Source: a virus
IMG/VR virus record: IMGVR_UViG_3300042934_000519
Location: 8,984-72,983 of that record
Direction: 5' to 3' (one strand)
Length of the DNA stretch: 64,000 bases
The position numbers were made by a program, and so were the translations under genes. Every line of letters begins with the position of its first letter. Positions within the stretch are counted from its first letter, which is position 1. Below are positions 21,173-37,703 of the stretch, one piece after another. The notes below the pieces were generated by a model. The model made no database searches and was not told the DNA's origin. It was given only the letters and a program-made list of their open reading frames with translations.

Positions 21173-21706
21173 ATGACCACGATAGTTTTCAAAGATGGCC
21201 ATTTGGCCGCGGACACCCTCGCAGTAACAGGTAACTCAGTGACTTACCTGATTCCCCACAAGAAGATCAGTCTCAGTACCGATAAGCGCATTGCTTACGG
21301 GATCTCTGGGATGGTGATTGAACCCGAATGGGTCCCTGATTTGGAACGAGCGCTTTTGGCGTTCGTCATGGAACACCGCAATGCCAAGAGCTTCAAAGCT
21401 CCGATGCCCAAGGAACTCGTTGACCTGATCGAACACCGTGACTTCATCCTCATGACCAAAGATCAGGTCTACACCAAATACGACGGCGTCTCCCCGGACG
21501 GGTCTCGTTTCATGTCTCGCCTGCTGCCCGGTGAACATGCCTCGGTGGGCACTGGTAAACTCTACGCCACCATGGCTTGCTTGTACGGGCATACTGCCCG
21601 TGGAGCCGTCCAGTTCGCCATGGAGAACGATTGCTTCACGTACCCTGGTGACATTGACACCATCAAGCAAACGTCGCTCAAACCGCTGCCTAAGGAGGTC
21701 AAATGA
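21173..21706 (+). CDS. HslV/proteasome-like Ntn-hydrolase
   Basis: M-TTIVFKDGHLAADT, SVGTG, AVQFAMEND motifs with N-terminal Thr nucleophile. Confidence 0.75.
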   Translation: MTTIVFKDGHLAADTLAVTGNSVTYLIPHKKISLSTDKRIAYGISGMVIEPEWVPDLERALLAFVMEHRNAKSFKAPMPKELVDLIEHRDFILMTKDQVYTKYDGVSPDGSRFMSRLLPGEHASVGTGKLYATMACLYGHTARGAVQFAMENDCFTYPGDIDTIKQTSLKPLPKEVK

Positions 21707-22248
21707 GCCAGGTCGTCGTCTACCGGGATGAGAGTCTGCTCTTCTCCACCAACATGTACACCATGAGCCTGACCACCGTACGCGTGCCGCTCGATTACTG
21801 GGTGTGCAAAGCCGGACTGCTCATTCCGATCAACCAGACTGCTCCGGCGCTGATCAACTTCTTCAACGGCAAGAACACGGCGCCAATGAGTACCGAGTCC
21901 ACGCCTCACGGGATTCTGGTGACCATCACAGGTGACATTTACCACGTCGAGATCAAACTCGAGCAAGGTAAGAGCCCGGAAGAAGGTGAACGCTTTGGCA
22001 AGTTGTACCCAACGGGTCCCGGCATCAGTTGGGTCCACTCCATCGGTGATGTCTCAGCAGGTAAAGCCGAAGCCGCCATGCGGCTGGCCAAGGACATGAA
22101 CGAGGTCAAGAAGCTGATGATCACGGCGGACGTATTCAACGCCAAGCAGCTGGAGATCTACACGATGAAGGACCTCATCGAAAAGATCTCAGTGATCCAT
22201 GTCAAGAAATTCCCAGAAGACTGGAAGGAGAAAAAGAATGCAGTATGA
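21703..22248 (+). CDS. Probable degenerate paralog of the upstream Ntn-hydrolase
   Basis: MSQVVVYRDESLLFST and HSIG...AEAAMRLAK...ADVF align by eye with the upstream protein. Confidence 0.5.
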   Translation: MSQVVVYRDESLLFSTNMYTMSLTTVRVPLDYWVCKAGLLIPINQTAPALINFFNGKNTAPMSTESTPHGILVTITGDIYHVEIKLEQGKSPEEGERFGKLYPTGPGISWVHSIGDVSAGKAEAAMRLAKDMNEVKKLMITADVFNAKQLEIYTMKDLIEKISVIHVKKFPEDWKEKKNAV

Positions 22249-22783
22249 CATGCACAGTGAATACCCTGTCATCCTTCGCCAGACCGACGAAGGTGTAATT
22301 GGGACGTGGTACGAGAACCGCTTCAAAGACCCGGCCATCATCTTAAAGGATCTTGAAGCCTATCCTGACCTTAAAGAGAAGGTGGCTAAGATCCACGAGT
22401 ACGCAGCGACTCACGGCGGCAAGATGCCGGAGTTCAAACACAAAGTGGAGATCTTCAGTCGCGTTCGTCATCTGGCCAGCATCACCAAAGGGTACAGCCC
22501 CTTTGATCTGGTGGAATTGACAGGACCTGCCTACTTTGAACCGCTGTCACATCCTGAATGGGCGGTCTCCGGTGAATCGACGATCGAGTGGGACATCCCG
22601 GACGACCGCGACGATACTGAGTCGAAGTTTTCCATGCAGTTAGATGGAACGGTCCTTAAGAGCCTCAGTGCTTGGAACGTTTCAGAAGAGCAATGGCTGC
22701 CTGTGGACAAGATCTTCATTCCGTTCAACACCCTGATGACCGACAAGATCGTCGGCTTTGACCTGGTGCCGATCATCGTGTAA
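22238..22783 (+). CDS. Hypothetical protein
   Basis: AAGGAG SD before ATG 22238. Confidence 0.7.
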   Translation: MQYDMHSEYPVILRQTDEGVIGTWYENRFKDPAIILKDLEAYPDLKEKVAKIHEYAATHGGKMPEFKHKVEIFSRVRHLASITKGYSPFDLVELTGPAYFEPLSHPEWAVSGESTIEWDIPDDRDDTESKFSMQLDGTVLKSLSAWNVSEEQWLPVDKIFIPFNTLMTDKIVGFDLVPIIV

Positions 22784-22806
22784 TAAAATACACGGTGGCA
22801 AAGTGC

Positions 22807-23657
22807 TATGTGAAAAGCGAGCAGTAACCCCTTAACTAAGGACAGTCAATGTTCTCAACCAACGGGGTGTTCTCTCTCCTTCGTAAGATCGTGTCGCAGA
22901 TTCGCTGTCAGGTTAGACTGACCCGAGTCTTGGCACGGTTAAACCGGGAGAGGGCCCCTTCGGCGCCAAAGACGCTAATGCTGCGTGGGACGCAGTCACG
23001 CCACGACCATAAGGCGGTCGGTTAGGCGTCGGCTGCGACGAGATTAGAAAATCTTACAGCTTAATGAGGGGGTCGCGCTCCTCTAAGGATGGAAATTGGG
23101 GTTTACCGCAATCATCTGCGGGTTAATGCTGTACTGCAACACGGCCGTGAGCGATCTGTCTTTCAGACCGGCTGCACGCCCGGAGATTCCGTTAGTGATA
23201 GCTGCTCGCGATTTGTCGCTGGTAGCTGTAAACGCCTTCGTGCCCGCGCTTCACCCGTACAGTCCGCCCTACCAGGCTGACTCTGGGACGATGGCCCCAC
23301 TGACGAACATGCACAGTCCAGCGTTGCTAATGCAGATGAGTACTACGGTCGTACCACGCCCAGGGTTCCAGACCCTGTAAGCCACTGGAACGATCGGAGT
23401 GCACACACATAGCTGCACCCGTGAGCGGATTGAGTTCCGTACTTGATGTAAGAGGCAGTTGTCTCTCATTGGCAAGCACGTGTGTCAGGCTCGAAGACTG
23501 CGGTTGGGTCTAATCGCTGCGATTACCCTAGGATCAGATCTTCCCCTGCACCCTTGTCAAGATGCTAAACAATGATCCGCCACCCCTTCACGATTCCACT
23601 TCCTAGTCGCACTGGGCAGCCGAGAATCATAAGGGGCGGCGTTCATTCCTTTATGCC
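22807..23657 (+). ncRNA. Candidate large structured non-coding RNA (~840 nt)
   Basis: No credible CDS in a gene-dense genome; TATG at 22807; more than 12 hairpins; terminal long stem plus TATGCCG. Confidence 0.7.
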
Positions 23658-23699
23658 GTGATCTTATGTACGCTTTCTTTTTTCTTTGGGTATGCTGAC

Positions 23700-24143
23700 A
23701 TGAGTACGGTAGAAGCAGTGGATGCTCCAGTTCCTTTGGTGGAACTGATCAACGGTAAATTCAGCTATTTCGACACGCGTCGTGTTGATAAGCACAACCA
23801 CTCAATGCTTAACCCTTTCCGTCGACTCGACGAAGTGGTCGGTGACATTCAGGTTCCCCAGTGGAACGTGACTGACTTCGCCTCCATTAACACCCTCCGA
23901 GATTTAGGTCTGTTCATTATCTTTGCCTTGCTGGCAGGGTACGGTGATCAGTCCGCCACCATCCACGACTACCTCTACGGCGGTGGTCTTCCTGTCAGCG
24001 GTCAAGTGATCTATCGCAAAGACGCTGATGACATCTATTACCGTGCCCTACGAGCTGAAGGTGTGGCTCGCTGGCGTGCCGGTATCTTCTACGCGGGTGT
24101 TCGCCTCTTTGGGGCTTCCCGTTGGAAAGGAGCCGTTCAATGA
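23700..24143 (+). CDS. DUF1353 family protein
   Basis: TDFASI, HDYLY, RKDADDIY...YAGVRLFG motifs. Confidence 0.85.
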   Translation: MSTVEAVDAPVPLVELINGKFSYFDTRRVDKHNHSMLNPFRRLDEVVGDIQVPQWNVTDFASINTLRDLGLFIIFALLAGYGDQSATIHDYLYGGGLPVSGQVIYRKDADDIYYRALRAEGVARWRAGIFYAGVRLFGASRWKGAVQ

Positions 24144-37256: not shown

Positions 37257-37703
37257 TATGTAGGAAACACGCTCTTTAAGAAACTGTTCTCCAACCAAAC
37301 GCCACTGGCGTAACTAGGACGCTTCCATCGAGTCGCGTTCGGCTGCTCTTAATGGCAGCCCCAGAAGGACTAGGGGGCCTTAGGGTCCCCTCTTCCACTA
37401 TTTTGTTGCAGCCCCATGAACTCGTCGTGATAGTGGGGTTTTGAGGGATAGTTCCATACGACCCAGGTGAGTCCGCCTTAGACTCTACCGCACCCTGGTG
37501 CTCGTGTGGTAAACGATGAAGCGTTGATGGTTTTGCCTCCGCATCGCTGTGACTAGGTAAGTGCCCGCTCCTCACTTGCTCGGTCAGTGTACAGCCTCTA
37601 GTGTCCACCGGTCCGGCTATAACCGTCTGGTCACTAGGGGATGAACATTGCTCTACAGCACTGAATAGACAGGAGGGCAACCTCCTGTCTTTCTTTTATG
37701 CCG
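37257..37703 (+). ncRNA. Candidate structured non-coding RNA (~430 nt)
   Basis: TATG at 37257, no credible CDS, nested stems, ends in terminator 37667-37690 plus TATGCCG. Confidence 0.7.

What the first reader, a model, noticed from the sequence alone, without database searches (positions are those of the whole stretch)
22807..23657. Candidate novel ~840-nt highly structured phage ncRNA
Seen: the largest non-coding gap in the window, starting at a TATG (phiKZ late-promoter core) and ending in a long imperfect stem (23571-23647) plus the TATGCCG signal. Helices read by eye include a long arm CGTGTCG/AGATTCG/GTCAG pairing with CTGAC/CGAGTCT/TGGCACG (22890-22937), enclosed by 22864-22880 with 22946-22958. 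Others are a multiloop GACGC..GCGTC containing CTGCGT/ACGCAG and CGACC/GGTCG, and hairpins AGATT/AATCT, GAGGGG/CTCCTC, CCGCA/TGCGG, TAGCTGC/GTAGCTG, CAGGGT/ACCCTG, GTGCA/TGCAC, AGAGGC/GTCTCT and TAATCG/CGATTA. Many stems contain G-U pairs on the + strand, which suggests selection on RNA. I recognise no tRNA, tmRNA, RNase P or intron signature. Its size is in the range of large phage RNAs such as GOLLD/ROOL, but homology is not established.
Basis: partly seen in the sequence, partly recalled or inferred. Interest (0 to 1): 0.9.

Follow-up and report, generated by a model that had tools for sequence, protein, structure and literature searches.

The report
Conserved RNA fold over small ORF
The "empty" 870-base gap in this jumbo-phage fragment is one transcription unit with two small ribosome-site-preceded reading frames, and its middle 290 bases form an RNA fold that two diverged phage lineages have kept by compensating changes; it is probably a folded messenger RNA, or an RNA with two functions, and not a purely non-coding 840-base RNA.

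Summary
Partly right. The helices, the terminal stem and the TATGCCG signal are there, and no Rfam, tRNA or tmRNA match exists. The stretch is not ORF-free. TAAGGA-N6-ATG opens a 58-codon frame (ORF-A, 22849-23025). TAAGGA-N6-TTG opens a 94-codon frame (ORF-B, 23096-23380). This is the phage's usual ribosome-site layout. The whole-length folding z-score (-6.2/-4.6) is nearly matched by 1 of 14 coding controls (-4.56). The window's 870-nt fold is not kept in the relative G001. "TTATGCCGT" after a hairpin fits the published phiKZ terminator motif, not a promoter.

The central 290 nt (23096-23383, exactly ORF-B) is a conserved RNA fold. Window and G001 share 53% of bases but 75% of independently predicted pairs. 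None of 161 coding controls exceeded 61%, and none of 200 permuted-substitution nulls exceeded 34%.

ORF-B shows purifying selection between close relatives (dN/dS 0.16) but no codon periodicity between lineages.

Best reading: a fold-back structured mRNA or dual-function RNA. A pure ncRNA remains possible. The evidence rests on two lineages only. The scan had noted this stretch only on this same genome.

The parts
22803..22814 (+). A role as start of the unit is inferred only.
   Evidence: Identical core in G001 and L022. Only 1 difference in 60 aligned leader bases between G001 and L022. That TATG is a late-promoter core is recalled, not tested.
22837..22842 (+). TAAGGA Shine-Dalgarno-like motif 6 nt before the ATG of ORF-A
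   Evidence: of 24 TAAGGA on the + strand, 14 are followed within 4-10 nt by a start that opens 51 or more codons, 9 of them at spacing 6. G001/L022 have AAGGA-N8-ATG.
22849..23025 (+). ORF-A, 58 codons, arginine-rich. Open with ATG and SD in both lineages, but without a protein-type evolutionary signature. Possibly a leader frame or non-coding.
   Evidence: 35-42% aa identity to G001/L022; called as a gene in the protein collection, P0099. Against coding: dN/dS 0.68, like the other frames; no codon periodicity; codon-usage score below 98.7-100% of real gene chunks. For coding: indels of 3, 6, 12 and 30 nt against G001, though 4- and 5-nt gaps against L022.
22864..22958 (+). Long hairpin arm (about 35 bp) inside ORF-A
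   Evidence: G001/L022 have a long arm at about the same place but with other sequence and a branched shape. Homology of the pairs was not shown: 15% shared pairs in the 5' part.
22991..23037 (+). Second arm capped by the invariant hairpin CGACC-ATAAGGC-GGTCG (23004-23020)
   Evidence: The cap is invariant in 3 of 3 sequences. The lower stems differ in sequence in each.
23066..23089 (+). Hairpin GAGGGG/CTCCTC immediately followed by TAAGGA (SD-like motif of ORF-B, 23084-23089)
   Evidence: The block CCTCTAAGGA is conserved but is read in a different frame in G001. G001 has GAGGGA/TCCCTC: one pair changed on both sides and one on one side. Spacing is N6 to TTG.
23096..23380 (+). ORF-B, 94 codons (TTG start; TAA inside the conserved block CCCTGTAAGCC). 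N-terminal hydrophobic helix, the rest predicted disordered.
   Evidence: family P0097, P0098, P0100, P0102, P0103 plus G001 and L022; dN/dS 0.16, differences 2/5/13 by codon position; a relative has a 1-nt deletion at 23096, which reads as an ATG at the same codon; pLDDT 49.7, helix at residues 3-19.
23096..23383 (+). Conserved structured RNA domain. Closing helices H1-H4 are 23100-23136 with 23314-23355; hairpin H5 is 23142-23182; H6 is 23190-23197 with 23298-23305, enclosing H7 (23198-23229) and H8-H10 (23234-23295).
   Evidence: same architecture in window and G001; 0 of 161 controls reach it; 0 of 200 nulls; z -3.0/-5.2/-3.2 on +; the result holds with flanks and in the whole-unit fold; model R1 matches 23093-23383.
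23361..23377 (+). Invariant hairpin CAGGG-TTCCAGA-CCCTG (T-arm-like by eye) at the stop codon of ORF-B. The following TAAGCC (23378-23383) can pair with GGTTTA (23100-23105).
   Evidence: 26 nt are identical in window, G001 and L022, including all third codon positions. The variant A23372G keeps the pair as U.G. The likeness to a T-arm is recalled, not tested. The acceptor-like pairing is read by eye.
23381..23577 (+). 3' untranslated part with two small conserved hairpins (GCGGA/TCCGT 23425-23440; AGAGGC/GTCTCT 23451-23466). The rest is poorly conserved, with indels not in threes.
   Evidence: gaps of 8, 7, 24, 4, 1 and 58 nt. AGAGGC/GTCTCT against AGGGAT/GTCCCT has compensatory changes. 13% shared pairs.
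23578..23659 (+). Terminator: long stem CGCCACCCCTT...AAGGGGCGGCG (23578-23641), then TTATGCCGT (23651-23659)
   Evidence: 7 hairpin+TTATGCCG sites in the window; phiKZ terminator consensus in PMC10914365. In runs X9 and X15, 23590-23631 is replaced by 67 other letters.
23700..24143 (+). Downstream DUF1353 gene (flank and coding control). The likely start is ATG 23700, not GTG 23658.
   Evidence: 15 of 16 listed variants are at third codon positions. Identity by codon position is 0.73/0.73/0.36.

Best explanation
The gap is one + strand transcription unit of a chimallivirus-like (phiKZ-type) jumbo phage. It ends at a phiKZ-type hairpin-TTATGCCGT terminator. It carries two small frames behind the phage's standard TAAGGA-N6 ribosome-binding layout.

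Its central 290 nt coincide exactly with ORF-B (94 codons) and form an RNA fold that has been kept by compensatory change. The most likely reading is a structured 'fold-back' mRNA, or dual-function RNA. ORF-B would be translated into a small, fast-evolving protein with an N-terminal membrane-type helix. The fold pairs codons 2-14 with codons 73-87 and closes a multi-branched core. It would restrict or time that translation, or protect the RNA, or both.

Shown: the conserved fold; the open frame in both lineages; the RBS-type motif; purifying selection on ORF-B between close relatives; the terminator motif.

Inferred: that the unit starts at the conserved TATG block; that ORF-B (and perhaps ORF-A as a leader frame) is translated; that the fold controls translation or stability.
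For: Conserved fold.
- Window and G001 share 53% of bases, yet independent MFE folds share 70 of 93 pairs within 2 alignment columns (75%); L022 gives 69%.
- In 161 slices of 285 nt from homologous coding genes of the same two genomes the maximum was 0.61. At 50-60% identity (n=37) the mean was 0.06 and the maximum 0.23.
- Permuting G001's substitutions among the same differing columns gave 0.13 +/- 0.07, maximum 0.34, with 0 of 200 reaching the observed value. It also lost about 21 kcal/mol.
- The same helices appear with different sequences in both lineages.
- Domain z-scores are -3.0/-5.2/-3.2 on + and -1.0/-3.3/-1.7 on -.
- Of 20 G001-L022 differences, 16 are structure-neutral, including one double compensatory change; 7 of the changes rely on G.U and so work only on the + strand.
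- All 6 listed variants of window-type relatives inside the domain fall in unpaired positions (5) or keep a pair as U.G (1).

Coding.
- The layout is TAAGGA-N6-start, as at 9 sites of this window.
- The frame is open over the whole domain in both lineages (1 stop, the terminal one, against 5-13 in the other + frames).
- G001 against L022: dN/dS 0.16 and differences 2/5/13 by codon position. Flanking genes give 0.08-0.28, and four of the five other frames of the same DNA give more than 1.
- Structure-tolerant mutations are spread evenly over codon positions, so the fold does not explain that bias.
- 4 of 6 listed window-type variants are synonymous. No listed indel lies inside ORF-A or ORF-B, while 9 lie in the spacer or the 3' part.
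- The upstream neighbour gene shows the same pattern of short-range constraint (dN/dS 0.22) with long-range divergence (39% nt identity).
Against: - Between the lineages, ORF-B shows no protein-type signal. Identity by codon position is 0.54/0.53/0.53 (control gene 0.73/0.73/0.36).
- Amino-acid identity is the same in all three + frames (25/89, 22/76, 26/85). Synonymous codon differences are 10/74, against 5/59 and 10/69 in the other frames.
- The codon-usage score of ORF-B is at the 3rd-5th percentile of real gene chunks in both genomes.
- G001/L022 have CTG, not a canonical start, at the homologous start.
- There is no Pfam or PHROG family.
- The AlphaFold model is of low confidence.
- The extra protein-database members were found because they are ORFs, so they are an ascertained sample.
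- Column-exact pair agreement is low: 18% at tolerance 0 and 43% at tolerance 1. In the model-fitted alignment, about 58% of G001/L022 cells are paired.
- Only two independent lineages have DNA in hand.
- Transcription and translation were not observed. The RNA-library contigs of run X20 do not prove transcription.
Confidence: 0.45

Rival explanations
1. Pure non-coding RNA. The ~290-nt domain (23096-23383) is the functional core of a phage ncRNA, with the 5' arms and 3' hairpins as variable periphery. ORF-A and ORF-B are incidental open frames, and the UAAGGA motifs serve the RNA, for example as protein- or ribosome-binding sites.
For: All the fold evidence above applies. Conservation between the lineages is uniform over codon positions and equal in all frames, for ORF-B and for ORF-A. 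Codon usage is poor in both genomes. G001/L022 have a CTG at the ORF-B start. ORF-A has dN/dS 0.68, like the non-coding frames. Third codon positions of ORF-B are far more conserved than those of the control gene (0.53 against 0.36). The 26-nt block around the stop codon is invariant.
Against: It must treat several findings as chance: the frame open in both lineages exactly over the domain (my rough estimate is under 1%); two TAAGGA-N6-start layouts; 11 of 17 changed codons being synonymous between G001 and L022 (about 0.3-2% at the 30% expected for structure-tolerant changes); and the absence of listed indels in either ORF.
Confidence: 0.27
2. One reading: one ~840-nt highly structured ncRNA of the GOLLD/ROOL size class, folded over its whole length.
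For: The whole-length z-score is -6.2 on + against -3.0 on -. All three parts have z of -2 to -4 in all three sequences. A few small hairpins outside the core are conserved, two of them with compensatory changes. Long arms occur at similar places in both lineages.
Against: Outside the core, 39 of 218 pairs are shared with G001 (18%); shared-pair fractions are 15% for the 5' part and 13% for the 3' part, within the control range. The window's full MFE structure is not kept better than matched controls. Two of 14 coding windows have a z at or below -3.6. The 3' part is equally 'stable' on the - strand. There is no Rfam match, also in G001. The 3' part carries many indels.
Confidence: 0.08
3. Two ordinary small protein genes missed by the first reader. 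The RNA pairings are by-products of sequence and have no function.
For: RBS layout. ORF-A is gene-called. An ORF-B family exists in the protein collections. dN/dS is 0.16. Indels inside ORF-A are in threes against G001.
Against: It cannot explain 75% shared pairs at 53% identity, against 0 of 161 coding controls and 0 of 200 permuted nulls. It also leaves unexplained the uniform conservation of third positions and the compensatory and G.U-type changes.
Confidence: 0.1
4. A tRNA-like or tmRNA-like module, or a ribozyme or intron. The topology is a 5' strand GGUUUA, a long helix, an internal domain, a T-arm-like hairpin and a 3' strand UAAGCC.
For: The invariant hairpin has a 5-bp stem and a 7-nt loop, UUCCAGA. 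It is directly followed by a strand complementary to the 5' end of the domain (6 bp in the window, 4 bp in G001). A long helix joins the two ends. The comparison with tmRNA topology is recalled.
Against: ARAGORN finds no tRNA or tmRNA. No Rfam tmRNA, RNase P or intron model matches, even at E<=10. No CCA follows, and the third acceptor-like pair is U.G in the window and C-G in G001, not G.U (read). The flanks are complete genes, not exons.
Confidence: 0.04

Closest known systems
Fold-back structured mRNAs of small membrane proteins (hok-type type I toxin mRNAs with long-range 5'-3' pairing; recalled knowledge)
   Same: A small frame that begins with a hydrophobic helix lies inside a compact, strongly folded RNA. 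Long-range helices pair the region just after the start codon with the 3' end of the frame. The structure is better conserved than the sequence.
   Different: No homology was tested or found. No antisense RNA was identified. The frame is longer (94 against about 50 codons). Toxicity and translation are untested. The host is a lytic jumbo phage, not a plasmid or chromosome.
Large phage-associated structured ncRNAs (GOLLD, ROOL; Rfam families)
   Same: It is phage-borne, larger than typical sRNAs, multi-branched and of unknown function.
   Different: No covariance-model match. The conserved fold is about 290 nt, not 600-800 nt. It coincides with an RBS-preceded open frame. There are no neighbouring tRNA genes in the window.
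phiKZ UTR-derived ncRNA candidates and the phiKZ intrinsic terminator motif (Putzeys et al. 2024, PMC10914365; passages read)
   Same: The same phage group. [quoted passage not shown]
   Different: Those candidates were screened to lack SD-preceded ORFs of 10 aa or more. No sequence relation was tested, and the phage collection gave no match. The supplementary tables of that paper were not seen.
tmRNA
   Same: The topology, by eye: paired ends, a long connecting helix, an internal frame, and a T-arm-like hairpin before the 3' strand.
   Different: ARAGORN and Rfam are negative. There is no CCA and no G3.U70. The frame has 94 codons with its own RBS.

Membership tests
Any Rfam 15 family (including GOLLD, ROOL, tmRNA, RNase P, group I/II introns, HEARO, 6S) | Covariance-model match at the gathering score | tested here: not met
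   Whole window: 0 matches. 22600-23900 at E<=10: 0. The G001 homolog locus L012 at E<=5 gave only noise far below gathering.
tRNA / tmRNA | Cloverleaf or tRNA-like domain with acceptor stem, CCA end, G3.U70 and a tag frame, as detected by ARAGORN | tested here: not met
   ARAGORN finds 0 genes in the window. No CCA follows UAAGCC, and the third pair is U.G or C-G.
Conserved structured RNA (generic) | Secondary structure kept between diverged homologs by compensatory change, beyond controls | tested here: met
   For the central domain only: 75%/69% shared pairs against a maximum of 61% in 161 controls and 34% in 200 nulls. Model-fitted alignment: 12 pairs changed on both sides, against 0-6 in the slid controls. 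The effective sample is two lineages.
Conserved structured RNA (generic) | The same for the full 840 nt claimed | tested here: not met
   18% of pairs outside the domain are shared.
Protein-coding gene (ORF-B) | Open frame with RBS and start kept in homologs | tested here: inconclusive
   The frame is open in both lineages, and the window has TAAGGA-N6-TTG (ATG in a relative). G001/L022 have CTG at that codon.
Protein-coding gene (ORF-B) | Excess of synonymous change / third-position divergence | tested here: inconclusive
   Met between G001 and L022 (dN/dS 0.16; 2/5/13). Not met between window and G001 (0.54/0.53/0.53).
Protein-coding gene (ORF-A) | Excess of synonymous change, codon periodicity, codon usage | tested here: not met
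   dN/dS 0.68, like the other frames. Identity by codon position 0.50/0.34/0.52. Codon score below 98.7-100% of real gene chunks. Only the frame, the SD, the ATG and the 3n indels against G001 speak for it.
Pfam / PHROG protein families for ORF-A and ORF-B | Profile match | tested here: not met
   The best E-values are 0.05-0.24, below the cut-offs. The Atlas gave only sub-threshold look-alikes.
phiKZ-type intrinsic terminator | GC-rich hairpin followed by TTATKYYGT | tested here: met
   TTATGCCGT lies at 23651-23659, 9 nt after the stem 23578-23641. Six other hairpin+TTATGCCG sites exist in the window. The consensus is quoted from PMC10914365. Termination itself was not measured.
hok-type fold-back toxin mRNA | Long-range 5'-3' pairing; small hydrophobic toxin; antisense RNA partner | tested here: inconclusive
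   Long-range pairing within the domain is present and conserved. A hydrophobic N-terminal helix is predicted only at pLDDT 50-59. An antisense RNA and toxicity were not tested.

The most novel reading that the evidence does not exclude
A new family of jumbo-phage RNA. It would be a ~290-nt multi-branched fold with paired ends and an invariant T-loop-type hairpin, working as an RNA (for example as a ribosome-, RNase- or tRNA-enzyme-binding module of a nucleus-forming phage). At the same time it would serve as, or mimic, a small open reading frame. That would make it a true dual-function RNA in which the fold outlives the protein sequence.
Probability: 0.25. Interest if true: 0.8.

Novelty: new member of a known kind. 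Interest (0 to 1): 0.5.

Why it matters
Structured RNAs of nucleus-forming jumbo phages are almost unexplored. The held literature mentions only short UTR-derived candidates in phiKZ. Here a compact fold is kept between lineages whose neighbouring genes have diverged almost beyond alignment. It overlaps an RBS-preceded frame exactly. If confirmed, this would be a clean case to ask whether such phages regulate small membrane proteins through mRNA architecture, or carry dual-function RNAs.

It is also a caution for scans. A folding z-score over 870 nt and helices read by eye were not what made the case. ORF, RBS and codon tests, together with matched controls, changed both the extent and the nature of the feature.

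Tried and rejected
- Known RNA families: Rfam at gathering and at permissive E-values on the window and on G001 loci, and ARAGORN. Nothing was found.

- GenBank phages: blastn 'distant' with the gap and tblastn with P0102 and P0103 gave no match.

- More homologs. A viral contigs 25-mer scan found only the G001 record and L022. Metagenome scans with a 20-mer found 0. An 18-mer found 17 stretches, 0 of 17 related by context or profile. The search for related loci with the upstream protein, P0102 and P0103 found nothing.

- Five more distant relatives (G002-G005 and pPa_SNUABM_DT01) have no blastn match, no ORF-B profile match, no model R1 match, and no more motif hits than the control. In pPa_SNUABM_DT01 a tail-fibre gene abuts the DUF1353 gene, with no gap.

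- From the representative search (7 hits) I kept P0097, P0100, P0102 and P0103. I dropped P0101, P0104 and P0105, which are long proteins matching only 23-41 profile positions. P0104 was read and is a repeat protein. P0101 and P0105 were not fetched.

- Pseudoknot GTTCCAG/CTGGAAC: rejected, because it is not conserved.

- TATGCCG as a promoter: rejected in favour of the terminator motif.

- RNAalifold on MAFFT alignments gave consensus structures dominated by the two G001-type rows. These were not used as proof.

- Structure prediction and the Atlas gave no usable lead.

- Read laying: runs X9, X15, X18 and X20 are contigs, so they show no starts, ends or strand. Uncovered parts mean nothing. 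Only 40 of 93 differences were listed. The RNA-library contigs (X20) do not show transcription.

- Supplementary tables of PMC10914365 (the lists of phiKZ terminators and ncRNAs) were not seen and may bear on the comparison.
Full report
**Context.** The window is bases 8984-72983 of a 72,983-bp IMG/VR virus record, judged 27% complete. Its major head protein, DNA ligase, helicases and polymerase match phage families. The head protein is 63% identical to that of Pseudomonas phage pPa_SNUABM_DT01, and more weakly similar to phiKZ-like phages of Erwinia, Xanthomonas, Escherichia (Goslar) and others. So this is a chimallivirus-like jumbo phage. IMG/VR holds one closer relative, G001 (head protein 81%), and four at 62-64%, G002-G005. 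The gap lies between a 194-aa ORF without a family (22199-22783) and a DUF1353 gene whose likely start is ATG 23700.

**Check of the observation.**
- No Rfam family matches at gathering score or at E<=10, and ARAGORN finds nothing.
- The 871-nt z-score is -6.16 with 20 shuffles on + and -2.96 on -. My repeat with 12 shuffles gave -4.62.
- Fourteen equal-length coding windows gave +0.19 to -4.56, with 2 of 14 at or below -3.6.
- Local 200-nt z-scores in the gap (-0.4 to -3.3) are matched by neighbouring genes. The global energy argument is therefore weak.
- The 3' signal is a recurrent motif: TTATGCCG occurs 7 times against 1.0 expected. Each copy follows a hairpin, directly or within about 9 nt.
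- This fits the conserved phiKZ intrinsic-terminator consensus (hairpin, then YTTATKYYGT) reported by Putzeys et al. 2024 (PMC10914365, passages read). The unit therefore ends in a terminator. That TATG is a late-promoter core is recalled and was not tested.

**Homologs.** G001 has a syntenic gap of about 867 nt (L012:1253-2119, - strand) between a 182-aa ORF and its DUF1353 gene. That ORF is 23% identical to the window's upstream protein, and the DUF1353 gene is 66% identical. A 25-mer from the most conserved block found one further record, L022, which is close to G001. Conservation is patchy. G002-G005 and pPa_SNUABM_DT01 lack the element by blastn, protein profile, motif and covariance model.

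**The gap is not ORF-free.**
- TAAGGA at 22837 is followed after 6 nt by the ATG of a 58-codon frame (ORF-A). TAAGGA at 23084 is followed after 6 nt by the TTG of a 94-codon frame (ORF-B).
- Of 24 TAAGGA on the + strand, 14 precede a start that opens 51 or more codons, 9 of them at spacing 6 (upstream regions of real genes).
- Both frames are open in G001 and L022.
- ORF-A is in the protein collection as a called gene (P0099).
- ORF-B has relatives there at 82% and 74% (P0097, P0098). A profile search adds P0100 (G001-type, from an internal ATG) and two 104-aa proteins at 31-35% (P0102, P0103), which start at the same position.
- A relative in run X20 lacks one base at 23096, which reads as an ATG at that codon.

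**Short-range evolution.** G001 against L022 gives the following:

| Region | Differences by codon position | dN/dS or divergence |
|---|---|---|
| ORF-B | 2/5/13 | 0.16 |
| Flanking genes | not listed here | 0.08-0.28 |
| Other frames of the ORF-B DNA | not listed here | >1 in four of five |
| ORF-A | 9/11/11 | 0.68, like its other frames |
| 3' part | n/a | 12% divergence, with indels |

Among the 40 listed variants of window-type relatives, the flanking genes show 5 of 6 and 15 of 16 at third positions. ORF-B has 4 of 6 synonymous and ORF-A 3 of 5. All 9 listed indels lie in the inter-ORF spacer or the 3' part (53 further differences were not listed).

**Long-range evolution.** Window against G001 or L022 shows no protein signature.
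- Identity by codon position is 0.54/0.53/0.53 in ORF-B and 0.50/0.34/0.52 in ORF-A, against 0.73/0.73/0.36 in DUF1353.
- Amino-acid identity and the numbers of synonymous differences are the same in every frame. DUF1353 shows 49 of 101 synonymous differences and a BLOSUM total of 412, against 88-168 in the non-coding frames other than the antisense frame in codon register, which gives 334.
- Codon-usage scores are low in both genomes. ORF-B is at the 3rd-5th percentile of real chunks, and ORF-A is below 98.7-100% of them.

**The conserved fold.** I folded window and G001 segments independently and compared pairs through a MAFFT alignment with a tolerance of 2 columns.

| Segment | Pairs shared |
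|---|---|
| ORF-B segment | 70 of 93 (75%), at 53% identity |
| 5' part | 15% |
| 3' part | 13% |
| DUF1353 control | 6% |

- In 161 control slices of 285 nt from homologous genes of the two genomes the maximum was 0.61. At 50-60% identity (n=37) the mean was 0.06 and the maximum 0.23.
- I kept the same differing columns and permuted G001's substituted letters among them. This gave 0.13 +/- 0.07 (maximum 0.34; 0 of 200 reached the observed value) and raised the energy from -112 to -91 kcal/mol. L022 gave 69%, against a null maximum of 0.46.
- Both sequences have the same architecture with different helix sequences. The elements are closing helices H1-H4, a 15-bp hairpin H5, and an 8-bp H6 enclosing H7 (cap GCGA-NNNN-TCGC) and H8-H10. 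An invariant hairpin CAGGG-TTCCAGA-CCCTG follows.
- The result persists with 50-nt flanks (63%). In the fold of the whole 916 nt, 67 of 93 pairs inside the domain are shared, against 39 of 218 elsewhere.
- Domain z-scores (100 shuffles) are -3.0/-5.2/-3.2 on + and -1.0/-3.3/-1.7 on -.
- The sharing test itself does not tell the strands apart: the - strand gives 0.91 and 0.68. Seven G001-L022 changes keep pairs only through G.U on the + strand. In all, 16 of the 20 differences are structure-neutral, including a U-A to C-G double change.
- All six listed window-type variants in the domain are in unpaired positions (5) or keep a pair as U.G (1).

*Limits of the fold evidence.*
- Column-exact agreement is only 18%, and 43% at tolerance 1.
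- A covariance model built on the MAFFT alignment (R1) left the alignment essentially unchanged. About 58% of G001/L022 cells are paired, and 12 pairs changed on both sides against 0-6 in the slid controls.
- The window's full-length MFE structure is not preserved beyond a matched control.
- Only two independent lineages are available.

**Reconciling the two signals.** Structure-tolerant mutations are spread evenly over codon positions, and P(synonymous | tolerant) is about 0.30. The fold therefore does not produce the short-range synonymous excess. Conversely, a constant dN/dS of 0.16 would predict clearly higher identity at positions 1-2 than the 0.53 observed. The upstream neighbour behaves the same way: dN/dS 0.22 between G001 and L022, but 39% nucleotide identity between the lineages.

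The simplest account is a fast-evolving accessory locus. The ORF-B protein is constrained within a lineage but turns over between lineages. What survives between lineages is the RNA fold. This favours a translated, structured mRNA or dual-function RNA. I put that at about 0.45, a pure ncRNA core at about 0.27, and the other readings lower.

ORF-A has no coding signature apart from the frame, the SD, the ATG and the 3n indels against G001. It may be a leader frame or not translated at all.

**The ORF-B product.** It has no family. The model has pLDDT 49.7 with one helix at residues 3-19.

**Mechanism (inferred).** H1-H4 pair codons 2-14 with codons 73-87. A conserved hairpin sits directly before the SD. 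Such a fold-back could limit initiation or protect the RNA, as in hok-type mRNAs (recalled). The invariant hairpin at the stop codon, followed by UAAGCC that can pair with GGUUUA at the 5' end, gives a tRNA/tmRNA-like topology by eye. ARAGORN and Rfam are negative, and there is no CCA and no G.U identity pair.

**Literature.** Searches for 'Chimalliviridae' with 'non-coding RNA', for 'phiKZ' with 'Grad-seq' and 'non-coding', for 'jumbo phage' with 'structured RNA', and for 'pPa_SNUABM_DT01' gave only listings. One review passage says that phiKZ expresses non-coding RNAs (PMC13282480). Passages of PMC10914365 describe 89-210-nt UTR-derived candidates and the terminator motif. Nothing resembling this element turned up in those searches. 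Supplements were closed.

Noticed in passing
It is 71% identical to G001 over 418 nt. Most indels are of 1-3 nt and not in threes. 17 of 98 RNAalifold pairs changed on both sides, for example GCCCCAT/GTGGGGT against GCCTTGC/GCAAGGT. There is no + strand ORF above 30 aa inside it. A 134-aa - strand ORF overlaps it and was not examined. It has no meaningful Rfam hit and ends in a hairpin+TTATGCCG terminator.
   Followed up: partly
window 8474, 15847, 23651, 28378, 37696, 56331 (+) and 41747 (-): There are seven GC-rich hairpins followed by TTATGCCG(T), against 1.0 expected. They match the published phiKZ intrinsic-terminator consensus, so this clade shares phiKZ's terminator type.
   Followed up: partly
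window 23673-23687, 32819, 51693 and 8 further sites: A T-rich motif, CTTTCTTTTTTCTTT, occurs 11 times (at most 3 mismatches) against 1.2 expected, all on the + strand. Exact 14-17-mers of it recur at many sites in G001-G005. It is probably a shared regulatory or 5'-UTR element.
   Followed up: no
window + strand, e.g. 4688, 6957, 20125, 20371, 21691, 28955, 37704: The phage's ribosome-binding layout is strikingly uniform: TAAGGA, 6 nt, ATG. This is useful for re-annotating small genes in this clade.
   Followed up: partly
window 22199-22783 and 21173-22248: The upstream 194-aa gene has no Pfam or PHROG family. It is almost unalignable with its syntenic G001 counterpart (23% aa, 39% nt identity), although it is under purifying selection between G001 and L022. 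The gene at 21173-21706 matches an HslV-family peptidase PHROG.
   Followed up: partly
window 23590-23631: In contigs of two runs (X9, X15) these 40 bases of the terminator stem are replaced by 67 other letters. The stem is a variable or replaceable cassette among close relatives.
   Followed up: no
window 22850-22856, 22869-22875, 37286-37292; L022 2788-2793, 2813-2819: The heptamer TGTTCTC (UGUUCUC) occurs twice near the 5' end of this unit and once near the 5' end of the second candidate RNA. In L022 one full copy is seen, plus a 6-nt TGTTCT just after the AAGGA. In this unit the first copy overlaps the ORF-A start codon.
   Followed up: no
window 22700-23800 in public runs: Near-identical or related DNA is held by 20 listed runs from 15 studies (soil, rhizosphere, food, wastewater, faeces, phyllosphere RNA library), so the clade is widespread. 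Only 4 runs were laid.
   Followed up: partly
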